Positions 7,555 to 31,258 are shown, counted from the stretch's first letter. The stretch is 64,000 nt of DNA from Candidatus Levyibacteriota bacterium (GCA_003152105.1 PLZJ01000002.1:848112-912111); one strand, 5' to 3'. Numbers and translations are program-made. Notes: generated by a model not told the origin, from the sequence alone.

Positions 7555-7759
7555 GAATTCTAATTACAATCGATGACAAGGAATTTTTGCACATTGACAG
7601 GCTTAGCTATGAGTTCTACAATTTAAAAAGAGGGAAAACAGGAGAAGAAAAATAATGGAAGACGACGATTATTACCGTAAAGTAAGTTTTGTTTTTATCT
7701 GTTACTAAGTCTACGTTATTATTTTTCTTCCCCCCTTTTTCTGTATTGGAGATAGTAGT

Positions 7760-8947
7760 ATGTTGTATTTATCTCAGCTTTTGAAAAAGAAAATTTTTTA
7801 TGGAAACACTTCACTAGTTAGTATTAGTGATTTTACTGTGTCTGGCGATCCAAAATCTCCATATATAACAAATCTTTTAGTTAAAAAATCGAGAAAGAAA
7901 TACTTAATTCCCGCAGATTCAGTTACTTACGATCAGGTGCAAAATCGTTTTACTGCTAAAAAGGAGGAGCTTGATTTTAAAGAAAGTAATGATACATATT
8001 TTTATCTTGTTGAAGATTTGTTAGATAAACAAGTAATAGACATAACTGGTAAAAGATTAGTTCGAGTAAACGACATAATACTTGAAGTAAATGGGAAATT
8101 AAAAATTACTGGAATTGATATTGGACTGTCTGGCATTACCAGAAGACTTGGGCTTAATTTTCCAAAACGAATCATCACGATTCCTTGGTCAGTAATTGAA
8201 GCATTTGATTATCAAACTGGAGATGTAAAAATAAAATTAAGTGAAAGTAAATTAAACACCCTTCATCCTGCTGAACTGGCTGATATTTTAGAAGAAGTTG
8301 GAACAAAAGAAAGAGAAGGAATAGTTGAAATTTTAGATGCAGAACAAGCTGCTTCAGCTATTGAAGAGGCAAATGAAGATACACAAGAAGCAATTATTGA
8401 GCATCTACCAACACCACAGCTTGAAAAGGTTCTTGAAAAAATGCGTACATCAGAAATTGCTGATGTTATTGATGAAGTGAATGAACATACATTTAAAAAA
8501 ATCTTGAAAATTCTTGGAAATGATCGAGCAAAAAATGTCGAAAACTTATTACGATTTCCAGACGATTCTGCAGGAGGGTTAATGCATTTATCCTTTTATA
8601 AGGAAAAGGGGGACAAAACAATTGGTGAAGTATTAGGACATCTTTCAAAAATTAAAGTACAACCCGAAGCAATTGTTGTTATTGATGATAATGATCTGCT
8701 TTTAGGTCAAGTACATGCTAATGAATTAATTAATATTGATCCCAATCTTCCCCTTAATAAACTCGTCACAACTTCTTACTCAGTTGATCAATATGCATCC
8801 TTTTCCTTAATACTTCGAAAATTCGCTGAATATAATCTTCGCGTTCTACCGGTAATTGATGAAAACAATAAAGTAATTGGAGTAATAACAATTGACGCAG
8901 TACTTCATAGGATAGAAGAGGAAAAAGAACATGCTGAGACGCTTTAA
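7760..8947 (+). CDS. Stand-alone MgtE cytosolic module (PRC-barrel-like N-terminus + MgtE-N domain + CBS pair) with no channel domain
   Basis: Acidic MgtE-N-like helical region (AELADILEEVGTKEREGIVEILDAEQAASAIEE...) followed by a CBS-pair-like region. No TM segments. The stop overlaps the start of the downstream NRAMP gene. Confidence 0.65.
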   Translation: MLYLSQLLKKKIFYGNTSLVSISDFTVSGDPKSPYITNLLVKKSRKKYLIPADSVTYDQVQNRFTAKKEELDFKESNDTYFYLVEDLLDKQVIDITGKRLVRVNDIILEVNGKLKITGIDIGLSGITRRLGLNFPKRIITIPWSVIEAFDYQTGDVKIKLSESKLNTLHPAELADILEEVGTKEREGIVEILDAEQAASAIEEANEDTQEAIIEHLPTPQLEKVLEKMRTSEIADVIDEVNEHTFKKILKILGNDRAKNVENLLRFPDDSAGGLMHLSFYKEKGDKTIGEVLGHLSKIKVQPEAIVVIDDNDLLLGQVHANELINIDPNLPLNKLVTTSYSVDQYASFSLILRKFAEYNLRVLPVIDENNKVIGVITIDAVLHRIEEEKEHAETL

Positions 8948-10175
8948 ATATCAACTAATTCGAATTGCCCCCATTTTACTCGTAATAGGTCCTGGCATCA
9001 TATCAGGTTCTGTTGATAATGATGCGGGAGGAATAACAACCTATTCAGTCGCAGGTGCACAATTTGGAACCACACTTCTTTGGGTGTTATTTCTAACAAC
9101 ATTTTCACTTGCAGTAACGCAGGAAGTAGGGGCAAGACTTGGCATTGCAACAGGAAAAGGTCTTGCTGCATTAATTCGAGAAAAATTTGGGGTTCGATGG
9201 ACTACGTTTATCATGATAGTTCTCCTAATAGCAAATTTAGGTACAATTGCTGCTGAATTTGCAGGTATTGCTGCAGCTTTACAAATAGTTGGTATGAGTA
9301 AATTCATAAGTGTTCCACTCGCAGCAGTAATCATATTTTTGCTCGTTACAAAAGGAAGTTTTAAAAGACTGGAGAAAATATTCTTAGTAGCATCGGCATT
9401 TTATATAGTGTATGTAATCTCTGCATATCTTGCACATCCTAACTGGACTAACGCATTTAAAGATCTGGTTATTCCAACATTTTCAGCAAATAAAGCGTAT
9501 TTATTAACACTTATTGCAGTCATAGGAACTACTATAACGCCATGGGGTCAATTTTTTATACAAGATTATGTTGTTGATAAAAAACTTTCAAAAGAGGACA
9601 TGAAAATTGAAAGAGGAGATGTGTTTTTTGGATCATTTATCACAAATATTATTTCGTTTTTTATCATAGTTGCTTGTGCGGCAACGCTATATACTCATGG
9701 AAGAGTAATTCAAGACGCAGCAGATGCAGCCGTTGCTCTTCAACCGTTTGCAGGACATTTTGCAACGATTTTATTTGGTCTTGGTCTCTTTAATGCTTCA
9801 ATATTTGGTGCTGCACTCGTTCCAATTTCAACATCCTATGTTATTACTGAAGCATTTGGTTTTGAATCTGGTCTTGATCATGGTTTTTCAGAAGCACCGG
9901 AATTTTATGGTTTATTTGCATTTTTATTAATTATCGGAGGCTTACTCGTTGTCCTTCCATTCCTGCCACTTCTTACTATTTTATTTGTAAGTCAAGCAGT
10001 GAATGCAATACTCCTTCTCCCCATATTTATATTTCTCTTACTTCTTTCAAATGACAGTAAATTATTAAATGGGTATTCAAACGGGAAATTTGTAAATACT
10101 ATCCTTCTTGTTACTATGTTTGCATTAGCTATTGCTTCAATTGCCTACTTTATTTCAATTTTTGTAACATTTTAA
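8931..10175 (+). CDS. NRAMP-related transporter (short, non-canonical; candidate NRMT-like Mg2+ transporter)
   Basis: GPGIISGSVDNDAGGITTYSVAGAQFG aligns to NRAMP TM1 but has DNDAGG instead of DPGN. Polytopic. Translationally coupled to the MgtE-N/CBS protein. Confidence 0.65.
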   Translation: MLRRFKYQLIRIAPILLVIGPGIISGSVDNDAGGITTYSVAGAQFGTTLLWVLFLTTFSLAVTQEVGARLGIATGKGLAALIREKFGVRWTTFIMIVLLIANLGTIAAEFAGIAAALQIVGMSKFISVPLAAVIIFLLVTKGSFKRLEKIFLVASAFYIVYVISAYLAHPNWTNAFKDLVIPTFSANKAYLLTLIAVIGTTITPWGQFFIQDYVVDKKLSKEDMKIERGDVFFGSFITNIISFFIIVACAATLYTHGRVIQDAADAAVALQPFAGHFATILFGLGLFNASIFGAALVPISTSYVITEAFGFESGLDHGFSEAPEFYGLFAFLLIIGGLLVVLPFLPLLTILFVSQAVNAILLLPIFIFLLLLSNDSKLLNGYSNGKFVNTILLVTMFALAIASIAYFISIFVTF

Positions 10176-16249: not shown

Positions 16250-17215
16250 TAATTTTAGTATCTATTATCTAAGCTTTTAATACTCTTACCTCGGCTACTT
16301 GCCTAAGCAGTTGATCAAACATATTTTCTTTTAAGCTCCTATGGTTATATCTCCAAGCATATTCATCAGCATAGGTTTGTAAATATTTCTTAGATACTAT
16401 TCTGTATACTCCATAAACACCACGTTTTAGTATTGACCAGAAGTTTTCTACATTTTGTGTATGAATAGTGCCTTTCACATATTGCTTAGCTCTATGATTA
16501 ACTGATAGATGTTCATACCCATATTTATATAGCTGGGTATATCCTCTCCACTCATCTGTTATTACTTTAGCTTTTGGATTAATATGTTCCTGTACTTGGT
16601 TAAGTAGTGTCCATTTACCGGTATTAGGTATGTGCTTAAGATAAATTTTTTTATTTTCTGACTTTCCTTTAGTTGATTCGTTTCGCTTTACCATTCCAAG
16701 TATTATTTCTTTTTCTTTCCCTTCTATCCCTTGTCTCCATTTATGTGCTCTGTTTATTCCTTTTCCTCCCATAAATGTTTCATCAACTTCGATTGTTCCA
16801 TCAGAGAATGAAGTCGATGGTTCTGCCATTAACTTTCGTATTTGTTTAAACATTCTATGTGCAGTCTTGTACGTTACTCCTAGTTCTCGCTCAAGTTGTT
16901 TTGCAGATATACCAGACCTTGTATGAGTCATTTGAAACATGGCATAAAACCAAAATTGAAGAGGGGTTGTTGTTTTTTCAAAGATAGTTCCAGCAAGAGG
17001 AAATACTTGATATCTACAGATACCACAGGAATATGCAGTACGACCATTTATTTTGTAAAAAGTAGTTATCTTTTGACAGCTTGGACACGTTATTCCATTT
17101 GGCCATCTGATATTTTTTATTTCATCGAGACAAGTATTTTCTGTGGAGTATTTTTGAAGAAATATTTTGAGGGTAAACTTTTGTATCATAGCCTTATATT
17201 AACACACATTTACCG
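16250..17215 (-). mobile_element. IS1595-family insertion sequence (boundaries approximate)
   Basis: Single transposase ORF. Terminal inverted repeats could not be defined by eye. Confidence 0.45.
16269..17189 (-). CDS. IS1595-family (ISXO2-like) transposase
   Basis: N-terminal transposase zinc-ribbon CPSCQK...CGICRY followed by a DDE_Tnp_IS1595-like region. Confidence 0.8.
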   Translation of the reverse strand: MIQKFTLKIFLQKYSTENTCLDEIKNIRWPNGITCPSCQKITTFYKINGRTAYSCGICRYQVFPLAGTIFEKTTTPLQFWFYAMFQMTHTRSGISAKQLERELGVTYKTAHRMFKQIRKLMAEPSTSFSDGTIEVDETFMGGKGINRAHKWRQGIEGKEKEIILGMVKRNESTKGKSENKKIYLKHIPNTGKWTLLNQVQEHINPKAKVITDEWRGYTQLYKYGYEHLSVNHRAKQYVKGTIHTQNVENFWSILKRGVYGVYRIVSKKYLQTYADEYAWRYNHRSLKENMFDQLLRQVAEVRVLKA

Positions 17216-20409: not shown

Positions 20410-21045
20410 TTAAACTCTTAGCTGATCAACTTTGAGTTTCTCAAAGAGTTCGTAGGTTGCAATTATTACACCACTGCTAGTAACTTTTGAGCTTACTACA
20501 TTAAAACGTTGAGGAGTGGTTCCTTCTGCAAATAATCTTTTGCCTGAACCAATTGTAACGGGAAATGTCCAAATATGCATTTGGTCTATGAGATTATTTT
20601 TAAGAAGTGTTTGTATAAGATTACCGCTTCCCCAAACCCATAGATCAGGAGCATCCACATTTTTGAGTCTTTTTAGTTCTTTTACTACGTCTCCGCTAAC
20701 AAGCTCGGAATTGTTCCAAGTAAGCTTAAATGGTTTATGTGAAACAACATATTTTTTTGAACTATTGAATGGCTTTCCAATATGGGGCTCTTCTTTGTGA
20801 TGAGGCCAGTAAGCTGCAAAAATATCATAGGTTCGTCTTCCTAATAGTAGTTCAAAAGGAGTAGTCATGAATTTGTTCATAATAGTATTCCCTTCGTTAC
20901 CCCAATCAAAACCCATTTGCCAACCTCCATATGCAAATCCATTTGAAGTATCTTCCTCAGATCCACCTGGAGCTTGCATAACGCCATCAAGCGTAAGAAA
21001 TGTTGTTGTAATAATTTTTCTCATATAATAATCGTACTTTATCAC
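20410..21045 (-). CDS. Dihydrofolate reductase-like protein (RibD C-terminal domain family)
   Basis: MRKIITTTFLTLDGVMQAPGG... is typical of RibD_C/YwjB-type reductases. Confidence 0.6.
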   Translation of the reverse strand: MIKYDYYMRKIITTTFLTLDGVMQAPGGSEEDTSNGFAYGGWQMGFDWGNEGNTIMNKFMTTPFELLLGRRTYDIFAAYWPHHKEEPHIGKPFNSSKKYVVSHKPFKLTWNNSELVSGDVVKELKRLKNVDAPDLWVWGSGNLIQTLLKNNLIDQMHIWTFPVTIGSGKRLFAEGTTPQRFNVVSSKVTSSGVIIATYELFEKLKVDQLRV

Positions 21046-21094
21046 ACCAAAAATTTAATGTAAATCTTTATTTCGGAGTTTATGTAATAGTTAC

Positions 21095-21688
21095 TTAACA
21101 GTGACCCTGAGGAATATTTATGGTGATATGAGTAAAATTAAATGAGGATAAAATTGAAGTAAGTTGGGATTTTGCGTTAGCTGAGGCATTATTTAATATA
21201 CCTTCTTGACATGCTGCAGCTTTAATGGTGCTTTGTGCACTCGCAAGAGCTTCTGTTTCTAAATTATTATTAAATGGCACTAACAATCCTTGATTACGAT
21301 CATAAACTTCTGTCTTTGAATTATCTATCGACGACGAGAGTATCACTGGAGAAGAAAGCGTAATCGTTATACTACTACCTGTAATTGCTATATCATTTTT
21401 AGAAAATTTTGATAAATCAAATCCTGCTATTACTTCTCCATGAGCTACAAGTAGAATCCTATTACCAAACAGAAACTGTTGAAAAACGTTTCCATTTGTT
21501 CCCGTATCAATTACTTTCTCAATGGTAAAAGAAGCAGTTTCCCAACGATTCAAGCTTTTCATTTCCTGCACAACAGCAGTTGTATTATCGGCAGTAATTG
21601 TTAATTCATGAATAAGTACAACCGCACCTATTGCTAAAAATATTAGAATTAAAGTAACAATTAAATATTTCAGTCTATTCATAAACAT
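21095..21688 (-). CDS. DUF4230-like membrane-anchored protein
   Basis: N-terminal TM helix and the ILLVAHGEVIAGFDL motif. Confidence 0.35.
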   Translation of the reverse strand: MFMNRLKYLIVTLILIFLAIGAVVLIHELTITADNTTAVVQEMKSLNRWETASFTIEKVIDTGTNGNVFQQFLFGNRILLVAHGEVIAGFDLSKFSKNDIAITGSSITITLSSPVILSSSIDNSKTEVYDRNQGLLVPFNNNLETEALASAQSTIKAAACQEGILNNASANAKSQLTSILSSFNFTHITINIPQGHC

Positions 21689-21835
21689 TGTAAATGAATT
21701 ATATCAGAAGTTATAACGTTCTAGGAGGGAGTTAAAAATTAAATTGATGTAATAGGCGAAATTTACTTACTGGCACTGGTTAATTTTGTTGGAACTTTTT
21801 AGTTATCTCGAGTGGCAGATTAATATCAGAATGAA

Positions 21836-22369
21836 TTAAAATGGATAACCTTTTAACCCTTGTATTCCCTTAAGAACTGATATCTCTCCCATTATCGGGT
21901 ATACATGCCCACTAATTAAGTTAGCGATAAACTCATAAACTTTTCTTGTTCCCATACCAAATGCACTCATATCAATCTCTTTTTTTAAATCCTCGTCTGT
22001 TAAAGATGCGAGATACGTTTCACTCTCTGCAAAAACTCTCTTTGCATATTCATTGAATTGTTTTAGATCTAATTTTACTTCTTTCAACCATTTAGGATAA
22101 GCTACTTGCCAATCAATGGGCTGTATTTCACTTGCACCAGTTTTTCCTTTAAAATCAGCTTCCATTAAGGGTTTAGTGTTCATTAAGAAATTGTGGATAA
22201 ACATATCTTCTGAGAATACCAAATGGGCATAAGTTCCAGCAATTGGATTAGCTTTTCCAGGAGGCATGAAATGGGCTACCTCATCAGTTACACCTTCCAT
22301 AGTTTGCTCAAGAGCAGCATGTGCAGCTTTTAATTGATTTAAAAGAATATGAGATGCAAAATTTTTCAT
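21836..22369 (-). CDS. DinB_2 (DinB/YfiT-like) four-helix-bundle protein
   Basis: Family-like pattern with His residues spaced as in DinB_2 metal-binding proteins. Confidence 0.5.
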   Translation of the reverse strand: MKNFASHILLNQLKAAHAALEQTMEGVTDEVAHFMPPGKANPIAGTYAHLVFSEDMFIHNFLMNTKPLMEADFKGKTGASEIQPIDWQVAYPKWLKEVKLDLKQFNEYAKRVFAESETYLASLTDEDLKKEIDMSAFGMGTRKVYEFIANLISGHVYPIMGEISVLKGIQGLKGYPF

Positions 22370-22505
22370 AGTAATATTATAGCAGTTTGAATTAAAACAT
22401 AGTCAAACCATTCTTAATCAATTTTTGAATATTTTTGAGCCTAATATTGTTGAAGAGTTTGAGCTGGCCATCGTGGATATATGGATACTTTTATAGTAAC
22501 ATTTT

Positions 22506-23483
22506 CTAATGTTCTAATATTTGTAGATTAGATCTATTGTTAACTTGTAGTTTGGCAGTGCCCCCGATTGGAAATGTTATCTGGGGAAATGTATGACCGA
22601 AGTCAACGTTTCCAATTATAGGCATACTTCTTAATTCTTGTTTTGTAGAAATTATCTGTTTTAAAATTTCATAAGTAATTTTACTTTTCTTCTGAAATCT
22701 GCCAAATACAATCCCTTTAACGCCTGGAAAGGATCTATCTAGAATTATTGACTGAAGTGTTGTATCTATATGCATTGCGTCTTCTTCGTAATCATCTTCA
22801 AGAAATAATATGCTGTCATTCATATTTGGAAAGTAATCTGATCCTTTAAGAAGGGCAAACATTGTCATATTAGCTCCTAATATTTTTGCACTTACGCTAC
22901 CTTCATGAAATAACCAATGCCCTTCGCTTTTATTAATCTTAGCTTCCTTATCTTCGTCTTCCCAATCTGCCCACTCATTGTTTGCTGCAACTTCAAAAAC
23001 ATCCTCTTTTATTAAGCATTTCTTAAGATATTCAATAGTGTAATTGGAGAAATATTTTTGTCCTAGTGTATGTATGCCTGGGCCAGAGTAGGTAACTAAT
23101 CCAGTTTTAGCATAGATAGCGTTATTTAAAGTAGTAATATCTGACTTTCCGCAAAATATTTTTGGATTGTTTTTAATCAAATCCCAATTTAGTTGATTTA
23201 GAAGTTGATTGCTGTTAAAACCACCGGTTGCGCATATTATGCCTTTTACGTTCTCATCTGAAAACGCGTCATGAAAATCTTCAACTCTTGCTTGAACTGA
23301 AGTGGAATAAAAATTGTCCTCTTCATTAACATACTTACCATAGGTAATTTTAAAACCTAGATTTGTTAACAGCTTTATTGCATGTTTCTGCTCTGATATA
23401 GATACTACATTTAATGACATTGAGGGGGCAATAATTCTTACTTCATCTCCTTGCTTTAGTTTGGAAGGAAAAATAGTTTTCAC
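22506..23483 (-). CDS. LD-carboxypeptidase (peptidase S66; LdcA/MccF-like)
   Basis: N-terminal GDEVRIIAPS and catalytic serine motif GKSDITTL (GxSDxT). Confidence 0.7.
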   Translation of the reverse strand: MKTIFPSKLKQGDEVRIIAPSMSLNVVSISEQKHAIKLLTNLGFKITYGKYVNEEDNFYSTSVQARVEDFHDAFSDENVKGIICATGGFNSNQLLNQLNWDLIKNNPKIFCGKSDITTLNNAIYAKTGLVTYSGPGIHTLGQKYFSNYTIEYLKKCLIKEDVFEVAANNEWADWEDEDKEAKINKSEGHWLFHEGSVSAKILGANMTMFALLKGSDYFPNMNDSILFLEDDYEEDAMHIDTTLQSIILDRSFPGVKGIVFGRFQKKSKITYEILKQIISTKQELRSMPIIGNVDFGHTFPQITFPIGGTAKLQVNNRSNLQILEH

Positions 23484-23559
23484 AATATAATTATATCAGA
23501 GGTTTTGAAGACCAAGCAGGATGCTAAAAATTAGATTGTTAAATCATGCTAAATTAGTT

Positions 23560-23593
23560 GCTGGCACTGGTGGACTATGTAGGAACTTTTTAC
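23560..23593. repeat. Dispersed ~35-nt intergenic repeat, consensus GCTGGC-N4-GTGGAC-N3-TGTAGGAACTTTTTA (best copy)
   Basis: Related copies at about 21769-21802, 22463-22496, 24797-24830, 25757-25790, 26487-26520 and 31168-31205. Confidence 0.55.
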
Positions 23594-23612
23594 AGGAATA
23601 ATTTTCTAACAG

Positions 23613-24125
23613 CTATTTCTTTGTAGTTTGTACTTTCGTTTTCTCTGTGCAAACACCAACAACTAGTAACCATGCTCCTGTAATAGTGTAGGCGAGTAAG
23701 ATAATCATCGCTATTGCAGCTATGTATAAACCAAGCATAGATCCTAATGTAAATAATAATGCACCTAGTATTTCAACTACATACAACCCTGTTCCAACAA
23801 CAATGCGGTTAACCCCTAAAGTAAGTAGGTTTATTCCCCGTTTTTTTACTTCCACAATACCTTTCACATAAATATATCCTGCGAAGATTGAAACAATTAA
23901 CCACTCAAGTCCGAATACTTGGTAATGCTGATCTCCGATTAACCCGAAAGCACAGATCACAAATATTGCAGTAAAACCAGCAAGTGTGCCTATTGCGCGA
24001 TTTCTGTGCGTTAAGTCCTTTACTATTGTCTCAAGGTTGAGTGACAATGCAACAAATACTAAACCTGTTAGTGCTGCAGCTCCGCCTCCAACCATAACAA
24101 AAAAATTTTGCCAATGTTCTATCAT
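23613..24125 (-). CDS. Polytopic membrane protein, hypothetical
   Basis: 170 aa, ~5 TM helices. Confidence 0.4.
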   Translation of the reverse strand: MIEHWQNFFVMVGGGAAALTGLVFVALSLNLETIVKDLTHRNRAIGTLAGFTAIFVICAFGLIGDQHYQVFGLEWLIVSIFAGYIYVKGIVEVKKRGINLLTLGVNRIVVGTGLYVVEILGALLFTLGSMLGLYIAAIAMIILLAYTITGAWLLVVGVCTEKTKVQTTKK

Positions 24126-24206
24126 ATGTATATTATAGCAATTTTTACTAATTACTTACACAATATTTCTTGACTTAAAATACTTTAAGTTGTTAATATA
24201 TGTCTT

Positions 24207-24599
24207 ATGAATAAACAACCAACTCAGATTAATGACATTCCCGCACAACAAGGATCCTCAGATAACTTTACAGGTACAACTCATATTCAATCCATTTCGG
24301 CTTCAGAAGATGGTTGCACTATGGTAGCTCGAGTTACTTTTGATAAAGATGCACGGACTTTTTGGCATACACATGGTGGTGAGCAAGTACTGTATTTTCT
24401 TGAAGGTAATGGAAGAGTAGAAATTGAAGGGCAGGGAATAATCGATGCAAATGTTGGTGATATTGTACGAATTCCTCCAAAGACCAGACACTGGCATGGT
24501 GCACACCCAACCGAAGAAGATAACATGACCCATCTAGCAATTGTAAATAATGGTGTTACCTGGCTTGAGCCAGTTCCAGAGGAAGTATATCGAGCATGA
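24207..24599 (+). CDS. Cupin-domain protein
   Basis: Cupin motifs HTHGGEQVLYFLEGNG ... IPPKTRHWHGA. Confidence 0.6.
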   Translation: MNKQPTQINDIPAQQGSSDNFTGTTHIQSISASEDGCTMVARVTFDKDARTFWHTHGGEQVLYFLEGNGRVEIEGQGIIDANVGDIVRIPPKTRHWHGAHPTEEDNMTHLAIVNNGVTWLEPVPEEVYRA

Positions 24600-24727
24600 A
24601 CCCAGCATACATTTAGGATATGACACCTCTCTAAGTATCGAGAAAAACAGTGAGATAAAACAGATAGCTATTACACACAAGATGCCATTCTTTGATCTGT
24701 AGATATTTAGTCTACTCTGAACCCGCA

Positions 24728-24779
24728 GTTCGAATCCAGACACCAGTTTGTAAGCAAAATGATAACTCTTGAGGCTAAA
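24728..24779. repeat. Companion repeats CAGTTCGAATCC(A/G)GAC and TTGAGGCTAAA
   Basis: GTTCGAATCC at 24728-24737, 25690-25699 and 26462-26471. TTGAGGCTA at 24769-24779, 25677-25686 and 25737-25750. They do not fold as tRNA T-arms. Confidence 0.5.
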
Positions 24780-24876
24780 TTATAGCAAAAATAGAAGCTG
24801 GCGATTGTGGACTTTGTAGGAATTTTTTATCATCAGAATCTTTACCAATTCAACTTTGTTTTGGCTCAGTATTAAA

Positions 24877-25659
24877 TCAAGCAACGACATTCATCTCTGA
24901 AACTTTAGTACCATTGTTTACTCCATAATAGGCTTGTTTTTTGCTCAGTACGTTTGTTGCAGGAACAAATCGTTTCTGTCTTCTTCTTACTTCTTGGTCG
25001 AAATTAGCGCTTGTAGTGTAAATACTGGGAAATAAACCTTGAGTGGTATTTGTTGGGTTCATCGGATCAAAAAGAAGCTGATGTTCACCCTGTGGTATAA
25101 CAATAAAACTATGTTCTTCTGCAAATTCGAGTTGTTTGTCCCAAAGAACAGCACCACTAAAATACCGTGATTCTACACCTTCTTGTTGCAAATAATACTG
25201 CGCTAATGCAGCTATCTCTGCGCATGCCACTGTATTATTAGCAAATAATTCGCTTAACTTAACCTCACCATTTTTTGCTTTTGAATAGGCTTGTTGTCTC
25301 GCGGGTTGCACTTCTAATGAGGATGGATATCTTTTTTCTAATATTTTTGTAAATGAAAATAAGTAAGCAAACAATTTTTCATCTAATCCGATTCCTTGAG
25401 AATCTAACCATTTTTTAAGCTCAGGAAGATTATATATACCTGTATTATCATGCATTTCTTGTAATACTTCCTGAAGGTTTTCAAAATCTCCAACGACTGA
25501 AATATCCATTTCATTAGTAAAAATACTTCCTCCTCCAACTGGAATTAGTGAGTTGTTATCTAACCTTGGTGCTTCAAAGCTTTTGCCAAATAACTTTTCT
25601 ATAGCAACTGTAGGTGTTGGTTCTTGTCCAGGATAACTCTCTTTAATGTCTCCATCCAT
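24877..25659 (-). CDS. Hypothetical protein
   Basis: Long ORF with no confident motif. Flanked by dispersed repeats. Confidence 0.4.
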   Translation of the reverse strand: MDGDIKESYPGQEPTPTVAIEKLFGKSFEAPRLDNNSLIPVGGGSIFTNEMDISVVGDFENLQEVLQEMHDNTGIYNLPELKKWLDSQGIGLDEKLFAYLFSFTKILEKRYPSSLEVQPARQQAYSKAKNGEVKLSELFANNTVACAEIAALAQYYLQQEGVESRYFSGAVLWDKQLEFAEEHSFIVIPQGEHQLLFDPMNPTNTTQGLFPSIYTTSANFDQEVRRRQKRFVPATNVLSKKQAYYGVNNGTKVSEMNVVA

Positions 25660-25871
25660 AATAAAAATTATAACACTTTGAGGCTATCAGTTCGAATCCG
25701 GACTGGGTCATGCCATTTTTTTCTAAATTATGACGGTTTTTGAGGCTAAAAATGCAGCTGGCGGACATAGACGCTATTCGAACTTATTGGTTACAAAATA
25801 ATGATAACTTCTATATTCCAAACTATATGTAATGCTGGCCATACTGGGCTATATCTGAGCTTTTTGTGCTG

Positions 25872-26243
25872 CTATTTAAAGTTTTTCCAGACTGGTCTTA
25901 TCGCCAAATATAAAATGCCAAGCATAACAATATTGACTACTAAAACCATTAACATACTGATAATTATTTGGTTTACATTGGAAACAATCTGAAATTCATT
26001 AAATCCAGTAACCAGAAAAATTACTATTGCTGAGGATAGTAATAGCGTGACCCCTATCTTTTTCCATCTTAGTAACTGGATAACTGACCATACCTGTACA
26101 AAACCAGCAACAATTCCCAAAAGGCTTATATAGTTCTTCGTAAGACGTATCATAGGAAGATATGTGAGGGAATCAGCAGTGAGTGCAATAGAAAATAGAA
26201 GTATTACAATGAGCCATATTGTTAAAAATTTTGGTCTTTTCAT
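25872..26243 (-). CDS. Membrane protein, hypothetical
   Basis: 123 aa, 4 TM helices. Confidence 0.35.
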   Translation of the reverse strand: MKRPKFLTIWLIVILLFSIALTADSLTYLPMIRLTKNYISLLGIVAGFVQVWSVIQLLRWKKIGVTLLLSSAIVIFLVTGFNEFQIVSNVNQIIISMLMVLVVNIVMLGILYLAIRPVWKNFK

Positions 26244-26247
26244 CTTT

Positions 26248-26433
26248 CTATTTATTTGCTTTCTTACCTAGACCAGCATAATAGCCTGCAAAAAACAAGA
26301 AAATACTAGTTGTTATTAATGGCAAAACGATAAAAATATGACTAGTTGAAGGATTAGCAATTAATGGGACACTACTAGCATCAGTAATTACTGCAAGTAC
26401 TACAAATGCTATCATCTTTCGTTTATTATTCAT
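26248..26433 (-). CDS. Small membrane protein, hypothetical
   Basis: 61 aa with two hydrophobic segments. 4-nt gap to the next gene. Confidence 0.3.
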   Translation of the reverse strand: MNNKRKMIAFVVLAVITDASSVPLIANPSTSHIFIVLPLITTSIFLFFAGYYAGLGKKANK

Positions 26434-26662
26434 ATTTTTATTATATCACTTTTGAGAAAAGGTTCGAATCCGGGTTGGGTTACTTAGCTGGCGAGATTGC
26501 CCTAGGATGGCTCCAAATTCTTCCAAGCATAGTACTAATGTACGAGAACTTGAAGAATTTGAACCTACATTATTGACTTTTCCTCTAGTTTTTAGTAAAA
26601 TACTACTATCATTAGGGGGAAACGAACATATGACTACGTGTTATATGCAACGCCTCCCATTT

Positions 26663-27187
26663 TTAATGTTTATACTCTAATTTCTTTTTATCAAACACAA
26701 TAAATATTTTATATTTTTGAAATTGTTTTAGCAAAGAAGACTCATTTTTTGCATTAGGTATAATGATTTTTGATAGCTTTTTAGTCTTTTCTAAATATTC
26801 ATGAAGGCAATAAAAATCTCCATCTCCCGAAACAATAACCGCTTTGTCGTATTTTGAATACTGAATAGCAACTGCATGTAATACTAATTCAGCATCAACG
26901 TTTCCTTTAGGTTTACCTTGACTATCCTTAACTGTTGGTTTGAAAACTAGGTCATAGCCGTATGCCTCAAGACGCTTATATAAGGTTTCATTAGTTTTTA
27001 TATAGCCAATGAACAAAATAGCTTTTTTAACATGGAATTTATCAGTTAAATATATTCTAAACTTTCTGTAATCAAGTTTCCATCCAGAATATATTTTTTT
27101 GTTATTTTTAAAAATATCCTTACTAGTACCTAAATTTAGATTTTGGCTGTCAATAAAAGCATATGTAATATTTTTCTTTGAGTTCAT
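26663..27187 (-). CDS. NYN-domain (LabA/MARF1-like) putative ribonuclease
   Basis: YAFIDSQNL, GNVDAELV and VSGDGDF motifs are typical of NYN/PIN-like domains. Confidence 0.6.
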   Translation of the reverse strand: MNSKKNITYAFIDSQNLNLGTSKDIFKNNKKIYSGWKLDYRKFRIYLTDKFHVKKAILFIGYIKTNETLYKRLEAYGYDLVFKPTVKDSQGKPKGNVDAELVLHAVAIQYSKYDKAVIVSGDGDFYCLHEYLEKTKKLSKIIIPNAKNESSLLKQFQKYKIFIVFDKKKLEYKH

Positions 27188-27193
27188 AGATTC

Positions 27194-27772
27194 TCATGAT
27201 TTACTAATATTTTCTGGTTCTTCTTTTGCAATACTATCTAAAAAATCTATATATTTACGTAAAATTGCAATTTCTTTCTTTGTAATATCTGTAGGTAGTA
27301 AAATTATTGCTTTAGTGTTCTCTCTTAACGGTAATTCAAATTTAGTAGTTTTATTACTTGACAATTCAACTTCATCTTTCTCTATATTTTGATCAACATT
27401 TTCAGGAGTCAATTCTTGAATTTTGGATTGATCATTTTTTTTCTTTCTCACAGTTATTTTAGGATTCCAAGAATTCATACCTGTAGGATTTAAACCATAT
27501 CTTTGGAAATCGGATATTGCTTTTTTAACTCTACTCTTATAGGTCTCCACTGATGATACTGTTACAGATGAAGTATTTTTTTGATAATAGGTATGAAATA
27601 TTTGATTAATGTTTTCTAATAATTTATCTATGGATGCTTTTTCTTCTTCGTTGAGCTCTGGTTCTATTTTATTTAGAGCTAAGCGTAGGTTTTGTGCGGT
27701 TGCAGGTAGATACTTACGACTCTTTTCTGCGGCTTCGATAAATGTATAAAGTGACTGAATATTGTTATGCAT
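27194..27772 (-). CDS. Hypothetical protein
   Basis: Long ORF co-directional and nearly abutting the NYN gene. Confidence 0.4.
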   Translation of the reverse strand: MHNNIQSLYTFIEAAEKSRKYLPATAQNLRLALNKIEPELNEEEKASIDKLLENINQIFHTYYQKNTSSVTVSSVETYKSRVKKAISDFQRYGLNPTGMNSWNPKITVRKKKNDQSKIQELTPENVDQNIEKDEVELSSNKTTKFELPLRENTKAIILLPTDITKKEIAILRKYIDFLDSIAKEEPENISKS

Positions 27773-27915
27773 AAAAATGCTGTATCAAATTTCCTGACGC
27801 TTGTCAAGACCTAACAGATTTAAATTAGTGAGAAAAATAGCTTTGATATAGAATATTCGTCAATTAAATCAAGAATATTGTACAGATATTAGACAGCTTA
27901 TTGAAAAATAAATAA

Positions 27916-28536
27916 CTATGCCCTTTCTTTTCCAACCTTTATTTCATATGGAATGATATTTTGTTTTTCCTTAAGCCTAAGCTCTGAGGAAACTACTAAT
28001 CTTGTCGCTTCACCATTTCCCATTGACCTACCCAATTCGGCATCTTGCTCAGGATTTGTAAGTTGATGCAGTAACACACCACTTTCCTCACCATGCATAA
28101 CAATACCAATCGTTTTATTCGAACTTGCTAATACTAACTCCTGAAAAGTTTTCCATATGCGCTCACTTACCTCGCGCAAAGATTCATCAGTAAATATTTC
28201 TTCTTCAGATTTCAATTCACTTACGGGTCGACCTCTCCAAGTGGGGTACTTAAGACCTCTTAATCCATCTACGTATAAAATAGGAGGATTTCCTACTTCT
28301 TTGCTTACTAAATATGCTGACTGACGAGCACGAAGTAGTGGACTTGTATATATTTCATCGAATTTAACACGCTGCTTAGATAACTTTTGCCCTAAATTCC
28401 TCATTTGCTGACGACCTATACTACTAAGTAATACCTCAGGTCCATAAATAGTAGGCTCACCTTGTGTAATAGGTAAATCAATATGGCCATGACGGATAAG
28501 ATAAACCGTTGTATCCATTGAGAAGCAGTATAGCAA
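27916..28536 (-). CDS. Histidine phosphatase family protein (phosphoglycerate mutase-like)
   Basis: RHG motif YLIRHGH near the N-terminus. Confidence 0.7.
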   Translation of the reverse strand: MLYCFSMDTTVYLIRHGHIDLPITQGEPTIYGPEVLLSSIGRQQMRNLGQKLSKQRVKFDEIYTSPLLRARQSAYLVSKEVGNPPILYVDGLRGLKYPTWRGRPVSELKSEEEIFTDESLREVSERIWKTFQELVLASSNKTIGIVMHGEESGVLLHQLTNPEQDAELGRSMGNGEATRLVVSSELRLKEKQNIIPYEIKVGKERA

Positions 28537-28571
28537 AGTTTAGAAGCTAAATCAACTATAGGACTAATTGC

Positions 28572-28643
28572 TGCGGAGCTAGGATTCGAACCTAGAGTCG
28601 CGCTGATCCAAAGTCAGGCGTGTTGCCATTACACCACTCCGCA
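28572..28643 (-). tRNA. tRNA-Gln: tRNA-Gln (anticodon UUG)
   Basis: Minus-strand sequence UGCGGAG..CCUGA CUUUGGA UCAGC..CUAGG UUCGAAU CCUAG CUCCGCA folds as a cloverleaf. U1:A72 pair is typical of bacterial tRNA-Gln. Perfect 5-bp T-stem with T-loop GTTCGAATC. Anticodon loop CUUUGGA gives UUG. CCA is not encoded. Confidence 0.75.
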
Positions 28644-28704
28644 TTGTCATCGTATTATAACAAATCTAGCCTTATTATAGGTAGTGTATAAATTTGAGTT
28701 TAAG

Positions 28705-29745
28705 TTATGTAGTTTTTACCAATTTGTAATAACTGGATTTGGTTATTCCAAACTTTTTTACTAAACCTTTAGTAACTAATGAAGAAAGTAACTGATGAGC
28801 CTGTTGTCTAGTTACTTGTAATTGATCTTGTATATCATTTGTTTTTATTGCTTTTTTCTCTAGTAGAATTTGCAATACTTCTTCTTCTCTATTTGTAACA
28901 AGTACTCTTTTTTCGCCTGTTATCTCGTCAATTGACGAATTTTTAAGTTCATTAATTCTGGCAAGAGCTGCTTGTAATGAATGTGAAATACCTTCTAAGA
29001 AATAAGCTAGCCATTTTGTTTCATCTCCATTGTCGGCTTTATGAAGCATATCTGAATACTGTGTTCTATCAATATCATAATAATCATCTAGTATAAAATA
29101 CTTTGCGACCTCATAGTGCTTTAATAAGAGAAAGTAGGTGGTTAGAATGCGAGCGAGTCTACCATTTCCATCAAAAAATGGATGGATATAGACAAACTGG
29201 TGGTGAAGTATGCCTGCACAAATTATTGGGTGAAGATTTCCCTGATCTTGAACCCATGCAAATAAATCCTCTAGTGCTTTTTCTATTTCAGCTTTGGTAT
29301 GAAATGGAGGATTGTGTTTGATCACGATTTCAGTCTTTGTTTTATGACCTACAAAAACACCACTATTCCTAAATACACCGCTTTCTTTATCAATACCTTT
29401 CATTAGTTCTTTGTGTAATCGAAGCGTTAAACTCGTGGTTAATGGTTCTTTTTTTCTTGCCAGGCCAAATATTGTTGTAAGAACTGAGAAATAGTTTTTG
29501 ACTTCTTTTTCAGATTTTGTTACTGGTATTGTGTCATTTAATATAATATTTGTGACGTCTTGGGGAGATAAAGGGTTACCTTCAATACTTGTTGAATAGT
29601 GTGTAGCTAGTATTTGATTCTCTTGGGTTAGCTTTAGTAAAATCGAAGGCCGTAAATCCTCAGAGGATAATTGTCCATATAATCGCTCTATGCTAGCTAA
29701 ATTATTTACTATATCAATAGTATAATGAAATCGCGGCTCTTTCAT
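28705..29745 (-). CDS. Fic-family protein (AMPylator) with C-terminal wHTH
   Basis: Canonical Fic motif HPFFDGNGRLARIL. N-terminal inhibitory-helix-like motif TSIEGN. Confidence 0.85.
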   Translation of the reverse strand: MKEPRFHYTIDIVNNLASIERLYGQLSSEDLRPSILLKLTQENQILATHYSTSIEGNPLSPQDVTNIILNDTIPVTKSEKEVKNYFSVLTTIFGLARKKEPLTTSLTLRLHKELMKGIDKESGVFRNSGVFVGHKTKTEIVIKHNPPFHTKAEIEKALEDLFAWVQDQGNLHPIICAGILHHQFVYIHPFFDGNGRLARILTTYFLLLKHYEVAKYFILDDYYDIDRTQYSDMLHKADNGDETKWLAYFLEGISHSLQAALARINELKNSSIDEITGEKRVLVTNREEEVLQILLEKKAIKTNDIQDQLQVTRQQAHQLLSSLVTKGLVKKFGITKSSYYKLVKTT

Positions 29746-29769
29746 AGCTAAAGTATACTATAATTTATA

Positions 29770-29912
29770 TTATTTGTCAATATAATTGTAAACCTATTTG
29801 TCAATAGTGTGGATATTTTAATTGTAAACCTATTTGTCAATATAATTGTAAACATGATTAGTATATATAGAGCACTCATATAAGCCTAGATTGTTTACGA
29901 TAATTTGTCAAT
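29770..29912. promoter_or_regulatory. Iteron-like direct repeats (TTTGTCAAT / AATTGTAAAC units) in the divergent Fic-MFS intergenic region
   Basis: TATTTGTCAATATAATTGTAAAC exact at 29771-29793 and 29831-29853. AATTGTAAACCTATTTGTCAATA at 29784-29806 and 29818-29840. A further GTTTAC...TTTGTCAAT at ~29893-29910. Confidence 0.5.
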
Positions 29913-29973
29913 TAATAATCAAATACAATTATAAAGTCTCCTCTTAAACTCTGCTACAATTACATATAAGTAT

Positions 29974-31155
29974 ATGTCCTTACAAAAAAATATTCGATTA
30001 TTGACATGGTTTAATTTTTTTACTGATTTTAAAATGTATGGTCCAATTGCAATAATATATTTCTCGCATATCTCTCATTCCTATGCTTTAGGGGGATTAG
30101 TATTTTCTATAGCATATATCGTCTCAGCGCTATTTGATGTACCTACGGGGATATTTGCTGACAGAATAGGAAGAAAAAAAACTATTATTCTTGGGGCGGT
30201 TTTTGCAGCTTTATTTGTAATTTTTTACGCAATAGGTCTAAATTTCTGGTTACTTGCTGTAGGAGCCTTTTTTGAAGGATTATCGCGTGCCTTTTATAGT
30301 GGAAATAATAATGCATTGCTTCATAATATGTTGTCCGATGAAGGCATGGAGCATGATTATCATGTATATCTTGGTAGATTGACTTCATGGTTTCAAATAG
30401 CTCTTGCTGTTTCAGGCTTACTTGGAGCATTTATAGCAAACTTTTCATTCCCACTTGTTATGTGGTTATCGGTAATACCTCAAGTTGTATGTTTGTATAT
30501 TAGTTTTCAAATTACGGATCGAAGTAATAACAAAATATCGGAAACTTCGGTAATACAAGATTTAAAAAGAGGATTTGCAGCTTTTAAAAATAATGCAAAC
30601 TTAAGACTACTTACTATTTCAAGTATATTAGATTATGGATTCGGAGAAACATCCTATCAGTTCCAGGCAGCATTTTATAACACAATTCTGCCAATTTGGG
30701 CAGTTGGGATTGCAAAAACATTATCCAACATAGGTGCTGCAATAGGTTTTAGATTTAGCGGATGGGTAATTAACAAACTTGGAGCAATAAACACTCTCTT
30801 TTATGGTGAAATATACGGTAAATGTGTTGCATTTTTCTCTCTTATAGTTATTACCAAGCTGTCTCCATTTCTTATGTCTACAAGTTCCATCTTTTTTGGC
30901 ACGGGTTCAATTGCTGAAGCATCTCTTATGCAAAAAGAGTTTAGTGATCAGCAACGAGCAACTATGTCATCCCTAAATTCTTTTGCTGGTAGTTTATTTT
31001 TCGGGATCCTCGTATATTTAATTGGTTTTCTTGCAGATAAGTTTGACCCTAGAAATGCTCTTTTGCTTCTACAAATTGGGTCATTATCAGTCCTTTATAT
31101 ATTATGGAGATTATTTAAGCAAAATAGGAATATTTCAAAAATACACTTAGAATAG
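29974..31155 (+). CDS. MFS transporter
   Basis: 12 predicted TM helices. MFS motif A-like IFADRIGRKKTIILG. Confidence 0.7.
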   Translation: MSLQKNIRLLTWFNFFTDFKMYGPIAIIYFSHISHSYALGGLVFSIAYIVSALFDVPTGIFADRIGRKKTIILGAVFAALFVIFYAIGLNFWLLAVGAFFEGLSRAFYSGNNNALLHNMLSDEGMEHDYHVYLGRLTSWFQIALAVSGLLGAFIANFSFPLVMWLSVIPQVVCLYISFQITDRSNNKISETSVIQDLKRGFAAFKNNANLRLLTISSILDYGFGETSYQFQAAFYNTILPIWAVGIAKTLSNIGAAIGFRFSGWVINKLGAINTLFYGEIYGKCVAFFSLIVITKLSPFLMSTSSIFFGTGSIAEASLMQKEFSDQQRATMSSLNSFAGSLFFGILVYLIGFLADKFDPRNALLLLQIGSLSVLYILWRLFKQNRNISKIHLE

Positions 31156-31258
31156 TAATTATAAAATGCTGGAGCGGCGGACTCAAATTATTTGGAACCG
31201 CTGCTTAGCCATTTTAACAAGTTAATGGAGGCTTATCAAGCATTATCCAAGGAGGATA

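What the first reader, a model, noticed from the sequence alone, without database searches (positions are those of the whole stretch)
21769..31205. Dispersed ~35-nt intergenic repeat family (seven copies in 10 kb) with companion GTTCGAATCC and TTGAGGCTA motifs
Copies at ~21769, 22463, 23560, 24797, 25757, 26487 and 31168 share GCTGGC-N4-GTGGAC-N3-TGTAGGAACTTTTTA. An example is GCTGGCACTGGTGGACTATGTAGGAACTTTTTAC against GCTGGCGATTGTGGACTTTGTAGGAATTTTTTAT. Three copies are preceded by TTGAGGCTAAA and/or CAGTTCGAATCC(A/G)GAC. They sit in nearly every intergenic gap of a run of small unrelated accessory genes (DinB_2, LdcA-like, cupin, NYN and others) and once after the MFS gene. A similar TTGCTGGCAC also occurs at 12903. 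Candidates are a REP/MITE-like element, a shared regulatory site, or recombination junctions marking serial gene-cassette insertion.
Basis: seen in the sequence. Interest (0 to 1): 0.55.

Follow-up and report, generated by a model that had tools for sequence, protein, structure and literature searches.

The report
Gene-cassette array anchored at tRNA-Gln
The repeat is real: it is a sharply bounded 34-base sequence that ends each unit in a row of swappable accessory-gene cassettes lined up behind a glutamine tRNA gene, an integron-like arrangement seen in many uncultured ultra-small bacteria but lacking the usual integron enzyme and hairpin sites.

Summary
Four of the seven copies are solid (21769, 22463, 23560, 24797). 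Copy 25757 is a probable diverged member. Copies 26487 and 31168 share only GCTGG.

The unit is a 34-nt block, GCTGGCaCTGGTTGACTATGTaGGAACTTTTTAT. A degenerate pattern of it matched 45 metagenome stretches with unrelated flanks, against about 0.2 expected. It forms co-oriented arrays of up to 8 copies.

In 80% of cases it lies 0-60 nt after the stop codon of a gene on the opposite strand. It has no hairpin.

In five independent loci, including this window (tRNA-Gln 28570-28643), the array starts exactly at the 3' end of a tRNA-Gln gene. Near-identical contigs differ by whole units, and homology breaks at the GCTGGC edge. One cassette is first after tRNA-Gln in one contig and internal in another.

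Cargo includes toxin-antitoxin pairs, GNAT acetyltransferases, methyltransferases and RibD_C. No recombinase lies nearby.

Best reading: a site-specific cassette platform, integron-like in logic but not an integron, in Patescibacteria. The enzyme is unknown. The TTGAGGCTA box is a real companion at a fixed offset. The tRNA T-loop fragments are real but unexplained.

The parts
28570..28643 (-). tRNA-Gln(UUG) gene. Its 3' end (...CCGCAGC) abuts the first unit of the array. Proposed primary insertion site.
   Evidence: ARAGORN and Rfam tRNA at 59 bits. A tRNA-Gln heads arrays in the same relative orientation in L009, L023, L039 and L003/L049.
21769..21802 (+). Copy c1: ACTGGCACTGGTTAATTTTGTTGGAACTTTTTAG. 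Ends the DinB_2 cassette. Most distal good copy.
   Evidence: PWM 38 bits and nhmmer 31 bits, E 5.5e-8. Gene stop codon at 21836.
22463..22494 (+). Copy c2: a degenerate copy with a 1-nt deletion. Ends the LD-carboxypeptidase cassette.
   Evidence: Gapped alignment score 23; 0.45% of random windows score as well. Gene stop codon at 22506.
23560..23593 (+). Copy c3: GCTGGCACTGGTGGACTATGTAGGAACTTTTTAC. The best copy. Ends the 170-aa membrane-protein cassette.
   Evidence: PWM 60.9 of a maximum 63.7 bits; nhmmer 45 bits, E 2.5e-12.
24797..24830 (+). Copy c4: GCTGGCGATTGTGGACTTTGTAGGAATTTTTTAT. Ends the 260-aa cassette.
   Evidence: PWM 37.5 bits, nhmmer 20.7 bits. Exact match to the corrected pattern.
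25757..25790 (+). Copy c5: probable diverged copy GCTGGCGGACATAGACGCTATTCGAACTTATTGG. Ends the 123-aa/61-aa pair.
   Evidence: Score is marginal. It shares the GCTGGCGGAC subtype with the L005/L023 junction copy. A TTGAGGCTA box lies at 25740, about 17 nt to its left.
26487..26495 (+). Copy c6: GCTGGCGAG only. Possibly a remnant at the expected unit boundary. Not supported by sequence.
   Evidence: Scores at chance level. Position only: 4 nt after a tRNA-like fragment and at the boundary of the NYN unit.
24769..24777 (+). TTGAGGCTA box, a companion element to the left of the 34-nt block. Further exact copies at 25678-25686 and 25740-25748. Variants lie 14-17 nt left of c1 (AGGCGAAA) and c3 (ATGCTAAA).
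   Evidence: Across unrelated contigs the box lies 12-15 nt left of the block in 11 of 57 copies, against 1% background.
24725..24747 (+). tRNA-like 3' fragment: T-loop GTTCGAATCC plus T-stem and acceptor-like tail, not derived from tRNA-Gln, antisense to the cassette genes. Others at 25687-25710 and 26460-26483.
   Evidence: The same arrangement, 67-69 nt left of the block and preceded by CAG, occurs in L009 and L026. No complementary 5' half of the T-stem is present.
21836..28536 (-). Cargo genes, each with its own TGnTATAAT element 6-9 nt before the start codon. They are DinB_2, LD-carboxypeptidase S66, a 170-aa membrane protein, cupin (+ strand), 260 aa, 123 aa plus 61 aa, NYN, 192 aa and a histidine phosphatase.
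   Evidence: Pfam. Promoter table. Units defined as block plus right-hand cargo tile 21769-28569 without remainder.
20410..21688 (-). DUF4230 and RibD_C genes beyond the last block. Either the distal flank or an old unit without a block.
   Evidence: Pfam. RibD_C homologues are cargo next to the block in 8 loci. The DUF4230 upstream region is 72% identical to the upstream region of the carboxypeptidase cassette (D2).

Best explanation
The 34-nt block is the terminal recombination site of mobile gene cassettes stacked head-to-tail downstream of a tRNA-Gln gene.

**Unit structure.** Read in the direction of the genes, each unit is: a short leader (often with a TTAGCCTCAA box and its own leaderless promoter), the cargo gene(s), a stop codon, then ATAAAAAGTTCCTACATAGTCAACCAGTGCCAGC.

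**Inferred mechanism.** A site-specific enzyme, not encoded next to the array, joins DNA immediately after the terminal ...CAGC. That tetranucleotide also ends the tRNA-Gln gene (...GCAGC or ...CCAGC). Cassettes can therefore be inserted behind the tRNA or behind another cassette, giving co-oriented arrays, and can be lost or swapped as whole units.

**Shown.**
- The conserved block has sharp edges.
- It lies next to stop codons.
- It forms arrays.
- A tRNA-Gln heads the arrays.
- Homology breakpoints fall at the block edge.
- The same cassette occurs at different array positions.

**Inferred.**
- Movement is by site-specific recombination.
- The tRNA-Gln end is the entry site.
- The enzyme acts in trans.

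The window's own array, with mixed good and decayed copies, looks old.
For: **The block is real and widespread.** A degenerate pattern worth about 23 specified bases gave 48 exact matches in 45 metagenome stretches. My rough estimate of the chance expectation is about 0.2. The unspecified positions are also conserved and the flanks are unrelated. No phage or viral contig matched.

**Arrays.** Copies are co-oriented and spaced 350-1700 nt apart. L007 has 8 and L010 at least 7; L025, L048, L005 and L023 also carry several.

**Position relative to genes.** The right-hand neighbour is a convergent gene in 28 of 35 cases. Its stop codon lies a median of about 24 nt away and is sometimes inside the block.

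**tRNA-Gln.** Seven of nine independent tRNA genes found in block-bearing loci are tRNA-Gln. In the window, L009, L023, L039 and L003/L049 the tRNA is immediately followed by the first cassette, in the same orientation.

**Breakpoints.**
- L007 and L010 are 100% identical over 5.7 kb, then diverge exactly at ...CAGC|. Different block variants lie on the diverged side.
- L005 and L023 are about 99% identical in their shared flanks but hold 3.3 kb against 2.0 kb of different whole units between block edges.
- L005 and L014 share a block plus a kinase gene, with homology starting at the block's first bases.

**Same cassette, different positions.** One cassette (78% identical) abuts tRNA-Gln in L039 and is internal in L007/L010. 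Its limits are at CAGC| on both sides.

**Cargo.** It is typical of cassette arrays: Phd/ParE, GNAT acetyltransferases, methyltransferases, RibD_C, GIY-YIG.

**Local, not dispersed.** Long contigs of 1.0 Mb, 392 kb and 91 kb each gave a single matching stretch.
Against: - No recombinase was found in the window's array or beside any array. Pfam scans covered most ORFs. A phmmer search with XerD found nothing in 384 kb.
- The only recombinases in the window are a large serine recombinase 30 kb away, inside a conjugative-element-like region, and an IS1595 transposase.
- The block has no dyad symmetry, unlike most recombinase core sites.
- There is no direct evidence of excision, such as circular forms or empty sites.
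- The exact crossover cannot be placed more finely than the shared GCTG.
- In L034 and L035 the tRNA-Gln and the block are arranged differently.
- Some partial copies sit in promoters, so a regulatory role is possible.
Confidence: 0.6

Rival explanations
1. The block is a cis-acting expression signal that simply travels with genes. It could be a protein-dependent terminator, a 3'-end element, an operator, or the -35 plus spacer of a promoter. The apparent cassette modularity would then come from homologous recombination between the conserved 34-nt blocks and the conserved tRNA gene after DNA uptake.
For: - The block contains TTGACT followed by exactly 17 nt to its edge.
- In L005 (1456-1486, gene start 1501), L023, L009 and L049, a forward-oriented, often partial copy is followed by a -10 element and a leaderless start about 12-15 nt later.
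- About 20% of copies have a right-hand gene running in the same direction.
- A 34-nt identity is near the minimum for RecA-mediated exchange.
Against: - There is no conserved -10 after the block in the convergent majority.
- There is no hairpin or terminator.
- The block is confined to one locus per long contig and is absent from the other 57 kb of this window. A general signal should be everywhere.
- In the L007/L010 junction the two block variants are very different, yet homology still breaks at the block edge.
- The L039 junction joins a cassette to a tRNA end that shares only CAGC with the block. Homologous recombination cannot create either junction.
Confidence: 0.17
2. The units are non-autonomous transposon-like elements with one conserved end. 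A transposase encoded elsewhere, such as an HUH or DDE enzyme, would mobilise them and insert them 3' of a CAGC target. This is cassette mobility by a transposition mechanism rather than by a recombinase.
For: - The conserved sequence sits exactly at the terminus of the unit, as in transposon ends.
- The site is asymmetric.
- The 4-nt sequence CAGC is shared by the target and the element end, reminiscent of IS200/IS605 target rules (my knowledge).
- An IS1595 transposase lies at 16269-17189.
Against: - There are no subterminal hairpins.
- There is no second inverted end.
- No transposase recurs near arrays.
- No block-like sequence flanks the IS1595 gene.
- The strict association with one tRNA species is more typical of integrases.
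Confidence: 0.15
3. The similarity is a chance or compositional resemblance among AT-rich intergenic regions.
For: Copies 26487 and 31168 and the 12903 sequence are at chance level.
Against: - No shuffle of the window reaches 8 bits, while the real copies score 37-61 bits.
- 45 metagenome stretches matched.
Confidence: 0.01

Closest known systems
Integrons, including chromosomal integrons and integrase-less attC clusters (CALINs)
   Same: - Tandem, co-oriented array of small, functionally unrelated accessory genes.
- Each unit ends in a recombination site placed right after the stop codon.
- Toxin-antitoxin, acetyltransferase and methyltransferase cargo.
- Whole-unit gain, loss and reshuffling between strains.
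- One array per genome with a fixed entry point.
   Different: - No intI or any tyrosine recombinase nearby.
- The site is conserved in sequence rather than in structure. It is 34 nt, with no R''/L''-L'/R' palindrome and no hairpin.
- The entry point is the 3' end of a tRNA-Gln gene rather than attI.
- Cassettes carry their own leaderless promoters instead of relying on Pc.
tRNA-anchored genomic islands and integrative elements, including Prochlorococcus tycheposons (from my knowledge of Hackl et al. 2023; not read here)
   Same: - Accessory DNA accumulates in tandem at the 3' end of a specific tRNA gene.
- Many units lack their own integrase.
   Different: - No direct repeats of the tRNA-Gln 3' end separate the units.
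- Units are single genes of about 0.6-1.2 kb.
- The boundary is a dedicated 34-nt site that shares only CAGC with the tRNA.
Xer-dependent modules: IMEX arrays at dif, and pdif modules of Acinetobacter plasmids (my knowledge)
   Same: - Small modules bounded by short conserved sites.
- Moved by a recombinase encoded elsewhere in the genome.
- Tandem arrays at one chromosomal site.
   Different: - Xer sites are 28 nt with two inverted 11-nt arms around a 6-nt centre, and the crossover is central.
- This block has no dyad symmetry and no TTATGTnAAnT arm, and the break is at its edge.
Shufflon sfx sites of Rci recombinase (my knowledge)
   Same: An asymmetric site in which only the arm on one side of the crossover is conserved.
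   Different: - Shufflons invert segments between inverted sites within one gene.
- Here the sites are direct and the units are independent genes.
- No Rci-like gene was found.
REP/BIME and MITE repeats
   Same: Short intergenic repeats, often just after genes.
   Different: - Those are palindromic or have terminal inverted repeats.
- They occur in both orientations.
- They are dispersed genome-wide.

Membership tests
Integron | Integron integrase gene (intI) next to the array | tested here: not met
   Pfam scans covered 57 of the 60 window ORFs of at least 100 aa and neighbours of tRNA-Gln in other loci. A phmmer search with E. coli XerD gave no hit in 384 kb.
Integron | attC sites: imperfect palindromes (R''-L''...L'-R') that fold as single-strand hairpins, with RYYYAAC and GTTRRRY cores | tested here: not met
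   Folding of 8 block-plus-flank segments on both strands gave z-scores from -1.1 to +1.8 and no hairpin over the block. GTTGACT and TAGGAAC occur, but in GTT...AAC order and only 3 nt apart (sequence inspection).
Integron | Co-oriented cassettes, each an ORF followed by a 3' recombination site, varying between strains as whole units | tested here: met
Integron | Mostly promoterless cassettes expressed from a common Pc promoter | tested here: not met
   Every first gene of a window unit from c1 to c5 has its own TGnTAnnWT element 6-9 nt before the start codon. This rests on sequence only; expression was not measured.
tRNA-integrating island / tycheposon-like element | Insertion at the 3' end of a tRNA gene | tested here: met
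   tRNA-Gln abuts the first unit in the window, L009, L023, L039 and L049.
tRNA-integrating island / tycheposon-like element | Direct repeats of the tRNA 3' segment bounding each inserted element | tested here: not met
   The 23-nt 3' end of the tRNA-Gln has no second copy in the window with up to 3 mismatches. The T-loop fragments present are on the opposite strand and their acceptor-like tails do not match that of tRNA-Gln.
tRNA-integrating island / tycheposon-like element | Element-encoded tyrosine integrase | tested here: not met
REP / BIME | Palindromic unit forming a stem-loop, genome-wide dispersal, both orientations | tested here: not met
   No hairpin. Copies are confined to 21.7-25.8 kb of the 64-kb window and all lie on one strand.
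MITE | Terminal inverted repeats and target-site duplication around a short non-coding element | tested here: not met
   Copies are direct and separated by genes. No inverted partner lies at unit ends in the window.
Xer (dif-type) site | Two inverted 11-nt arms around a 6-8-nt centre, with a central crossover | tested here: not met
   No dyad symmetry (sequence inspection). Homology breaks at the block edge, not its centre.
CRISPR array | Repeats of 25-40 nt separated by spacers of similar, regular length | tested here: not met
   Spacing is 350-1800 nt and filled with genes.

The most novel reading that the evidence does not exclude
A previously undescribed cassette-capture system is widespread in Patescibacteria. 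It uses a linear, sequence-specific 34-nt site instead of attC hairpins. The 3' end of tRNA-Gln serves as its docking site. The recombinase is encoded elsewhere in the genome or on a helper element and may be of a new kind. This would be an independent invention of the integron principle in ultra-small symbiotic bacteria.
Probability: 0.45. Interest if true: 0.85.

Novelty: new variant of a known kind. Interest (0 to 1): 0.72.

Why it matters
**If true, what it would change**

Patescibacteria have tiny genomes and depend on host cells. How they acquire and exchange accessory functions is poorly understood.

- A dedicated cassette platform at tRNA-Gln would be a defined route of gene flow. The cargo seen here includes toxin-antitoxin pairs, acetyltransferases, a microcin-immunity-like peptidase family, and even enolase and peptide deformylase copies.
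- It would show that the integron logic of stockpiling single-gene cassettes at one site has arisen with different parts.
- The 34-nt site is a simple probe. It can recover cassette pools from metagenomes and can be used to look for the missing enzyme by co-occurrence.
- The site and enzyme could become a tool for the few cultivable Saccharibacteria.

Tried and rejected
no match; the spacing is off by one.
- **sigma-54 promoter (TGGCAC-N5-TTGC):** the spacing is 2 nt short (inspection).
- **ECF-type promoter (GGAAC -35):** no conserved -10 at the required distance.
- **Intrinsic terminator, REP or attC hairpin:** no structure on either strand.
- **Rfam:** only the tRNA-Gln was found. No family matches the block or the T-loop fragments.
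- **tRNA fragments as direct repeats of tRNA-Gln (classical attL/attR):** wrong strand and wrong sequence.
- **tRNA fragments as a retro-element primer-binding site:** no CCA and no match to a complete tRNA 3' end.
- **Fragments as the -35 of the cassette promoter:** TTCGAA lies 17 nt before TATAAT at two window sites, but not in L026, so this is left open.
- **dif/Xer, lox/FRT and Ter-site resemblances:** partial string similarities only, with no dyad symmetry.
- **Search for the enzyme:** Pfam and NCBIfam on window ORFs and about 190 ORFs from related loci, PDB sequence searches of two unknown neighbours, and phmmer with XerD and the window's serine recombinase. Nothing recurrent was found.
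- **IS1595 ends:** no block-like inverted repeats.
- **Viral contigs:** no copy.
- **Literature:** searches by sequence string and by topic found no description.
- **Close relatives of this genome:** the eight window proteins found in the collection are all singletons at 90% identity (two others were not in it), so strain-level comparison had to use other contigs.
Full report
**1. Observation**

The consensus as written (GCTGGC-N4-GTGGAC-N3-TGTAGGAA) has no match in the window, even with three mismatches. With N2 it matches 23560 and 24797 exactly; none of 100 shuffles gives a match. The repeat finder recovered a 42-nt family at 21760, 23551 and 24788. It also found an adjoining 67-nt similarity between 21697-21763 and 23489-23555, so two intergenic gaps are about 75% alike over about 105 nt.

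Scoring against a profile built from independent copies (see section 2) gave these results:

| Copy | Position | Result |
|---|---|---|
| c3 | 23560 | 61 bits PWM, 45 bits nhmmer |
| c1 | 21769 | 38 and 31 bits |
| c4 | 24797 | 37.5 and 21 bits |
| c2 | 22463 | needs a 1-nt gap; 0.45% of random windows score as well |
| c5 | 25757 | marginal, 7.8% |
| c6, c7 | 26487, 31168 | chance level |
| – | 12903 | chance level |

No shuffle of the window exceeded 3.7 bits. So four copies are solid, one is probable, and two are not members. All real copies are on the + strand. Each lies 8-81 nt from the stop codon of a minus-strand gene.

**2. The block is not private to this genome**

I scanned public metagenome contigs with CTGGCNNNNGTKRAYNNTGTWGGAAYTTTT, which is worth about 23 specified bases. 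It returned 48 exact matches in 45 stretches. My rough estimate of the chance expectation is about 0.2.

The unspecified positions are conserved as well. Conservation starts and stops abruptly, giving GCTGGCaCTGGTTGACTATGTaGGAACTTTTTAT, with no information in the 60 nt on either side.

An HMM of the block finds arrays of co-oriented copies spaced 350-1700 nt apart: 8 in L007, at least 7 in L010, and several each in L025, L048, L005 and L023. A scan of viral contigs found none.

The scan of reference genomes used a narrower variant and gave two hits. One, at GC 58%, is chance. The other (CAYYSJ010000001.1, 421 kb, GC 36%) is a true array.

Long contigs of 1.0 Mb, 392 kb and 91 kb each gave a single matching stretch. 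In this window the block occurs only between 21.7 and 25.8 kb. The element is therefore local, not dispersed.

**3. Anatomy**

Taking the block in its + orientation, the gene to its right is on the opposite strand in 28 of 35 informative cases. Its stop codon lies a median of about 24 nt away, and in several cases it lies inside the block's TTTTTAT end.

Read in gene sense, a unit is: leader, gene(s), stop codon, ATAAAAAGTTCCTACATAGTCAACCAGTGCCAGC.

Neither strand of the block and its flanks folds better than shuffled sequence; z-scores range from -1.1 to +1.8. No consensus promoter or terminator coincides with it. Rfam has nothing for it.

Each first gene of a window unit from c1 to c5 has its own TGnTATAAT-type element 6-9 nt before the start codon. 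This leaderless layout is common across the whole window.

**4. The tRNA**

The window has one tRNA gene, tRNA-Gln(UUG), at 28570-28643 on the minus strand. This is the same strand as the cassette genes, and its 3' end points into the array.

tRNA scans of the related loci found nine independent tRNA genes. Seven of them are tRNA-Gln. In L009, L023, L039 and L003/L049, as in the window, the tRNA is followed at once by the first cassette gene in the same orientation and then by the block in reverse complement. L034 and L035 have a tRNA-Gln near a block but in other arrangements.

All these tRNA-Gln genes end in ...(G/C)CAGC. The gene-sense block ends in ...GCCAGC.

**5. Evidence that units move as units**

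- L007 and L010 are 100% identical over 5.7 kb and then diverge. The break falls exactly after ...CAGC. On the diverged side, L007 has a good block and L010 a very degenerate one.
- L005 and L023 are about 99% identical in two segments that bracket 3.3 kb in one and 2.0 kb in the other. Both stretches are made of different whole units. On the left, the flank is identical for 129 nt and the block that follows has two differences. On the right, homology resumes at the first bases of a degenerate block.
- L005 and L014 share a block plus a kinase gene running the same way, with homology starting at the block's left edge.
- A cassette encoding an M78-like protein (78% nucleotide identity) is the first unit after tRNA-Gln in L039 and an internal unit in L007/L010. 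Its homology begins right after ...GGCAGC of the tRNA in one, and right after a decayed block in the other. It ends at GCCAGC in both.

Homologous exchange within the block cannot create the last junction, or the L007/L010 one.

Defined this way (block plus everything to its right, up to the next block), the window's units tile 21769-28569 and end exactly at the tRNA-Gln 3' end.

**6. Cargo and host**

Window cargo is DinB_2, an S66 LD-carboxypeptidase, a membrane protein, a cupin, NYN, a histidine phosphatase and several unknowns.

In related loci the commonest families among 150 ORFs are GNAT acetyltransferases, methyltransferases, RibD_C and histidine kinases. Phd/ParE pairs, GIY-YIG, NUDIX, peptide deformylase and enolase also occur.

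The window comes from a 1.14-Mb metagenome scaffold. The eight window proteins that were found in the collection are singletons at 90% identity. The best named relatives of its P-type ATPase are from Patescibacteria and Saccharimonadales. RibD_C relatives include Levyibacteriota and Patescibacteria. The host assignment is therefore an inference from homologue names, genome size and the type IV secretion genes. It is not a phylogeny.

**7. What is missing**

No recombinase lies in or beside any array. The searches were:
- Pfam on nearly all window ORFs and on neighbours of five tRNA-Gln heads.
- NCBIfam on ten unknown proteins.
- PDB sequence searches of two unknown neighbours.
- phmmer with E. 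coli XerD over 384 kb.

None gave a tyrosine recombinase. The window has a large serine recombinase at 59319-60959, but it belongs to a conjugative-element-like block 30 kb away. It also has an IS1595 transposase at 16269-17189, whose surroundings hold no block-like repeat. The enzyme is unknown, and so is the chemistry.

**8. Companion motifs**

The TTGAGGCTA box is a real companion. A box of the form RGGCTAA lies 12-15 nt left of the block in 11 of 57 distinct copies, against 1% background. Variants are present at c1, c3 and c5. In gene sense it is the first feature of the next unit. It may be the other half of the site; that is inference.

GTTCGAATCC is a tRNA T-loop. At 24728, 25690 and 26462 it is followed by a T-stem and acceptor-like tail but has no 5' partner. 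It lies on the strand opposite the tRNA-Gln, and its tail does not match tRNA-Gln. The same arrangement occurs in L009 and L026, 67-69 nt left of the block, usually preceded by CAG and followed by TTTGTAAG. These fragments are part of a shared leader module of some cassettes. Their origin is unexplained. The 25687-25704 fragment also forms a 7-bp hairpin.

**9. Interpretation**

The best-supported reading is a site-specific cassette platform, with confidence 0.6. It works like an integron but fails the membership tests:
- no intI
- no attC hairpins
- no common promoter

It also fails those of classical tRNA islands, because no tRNA direct repeats bound the units.

Rivals:
- *An expression signal spread by homologous recombination (0.17).* This is kept alive by forward-oriented partial copies that sit as -35 plus spacer before leaderless genes in L005, L009, L023 and L049.
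- *Transposase-driven one-ended elements targeting CAGC (0.15).*
- *Chance (0.01).* Excluded for c1-c4.

**10. Novelty**

I found no description in the searchable literature, either by sequence string or by topic. That library is incomplete, so prior description cannot be excluded.

I rate it a new variant of a known kind. The logic is that of integrons, but the site, the anchor and presumably the enzyme are different.

Noticed in passing
window 34421-62068: A region that looks like a conjugative element. It holds an M23 peptidase, a VirB4/TraG-like ATPase, a TrbL-like protein, FtsK, a relaxase-like protein (Replic_Relax), a coupling protein and a large serine recombinase (59319-60959). A LexA-like S24 peptidase, DinB polymerase and SRAP cluster lies inside it.
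   Followed up: partly
window 48287-51550 (-): A 1087-aa protein that fuses an SNF2/ResIII helicase with sigma-70 regions 2 and 4. This is an unusual domain combination. The next gene (51781-55074, 1097 aa) has no family match.
   Followed up: no
window 29771-29853: Exact 23-24-nt direct repeats (TAATTGTAAACCTATTTGTCAATA and overlapping register) in the 228-nt gap between the divergent Fic/wHTH gene and the MFS gene. They are probably operator or promoter repeats. This gap lies just upstream of the tRNA-Gln.
   Followed up: no
window, whole: Many first genes have a TATAAT-like element, often TGnTATAAT, only 6-9 nt before the start codon and no Shine-Dalgarno sequence. This suggests widespread leaderless mRNAs. 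Genes inside operons do have AGGAG.
   Followed up: partly
window 16269-17189 (-): An IS1595-family transposase (zinc ribbon plus DDE) a few kb beyond the distal end of the array. No clear terminal inverted repeats were found around it.
   Followed up: partly
window 25687-25704: CAGTTCGAATCCGGACTG, the T-loop fragment, is itself a 7-bp inverted repeat (z = -2.4). It sits with TTCGAA exactly 17 nt upstream of the TATAAT of the 260-aa gene. The same spacing holds at 26462.
   Followed up: partly
L049 (CAYYSJ010000001.1, 41830-62435) and L011: Housekeeping-type genes occur as array units: peptide deformylase and NUDIX directly after tRNA-Gln, and enolase with the block overlapping its stop codon. 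The MAG holding L049 is labelled Gammaproteobacteria, yet its array is of the type found here in contigs whose named homologues are Patescibacteria, at GC 36%. The label may be wrong.
   Followed up: no
L009 2978-3002, L026 761-783 and 1391-1406, L048 3583-3597: A second variant of the block (CAcTaGTGTACGAyGTAGGAACTTTT) lacks the GCTGGC end. It occurs in the opposite orientation and lies directly in front of a -10 element and a gene start. In L009 it lies 14 nt after the tRNA-Gln.
   Followed up: partly
window 3593-10175: A cluster of metal-transport genes: two Nramp paralogues, a P-type ATPase and an MgtE-N/CBS protein. L009 carries a 70%-identical Nramp gene close to its tRNA-Gln array.
   Followed up: no
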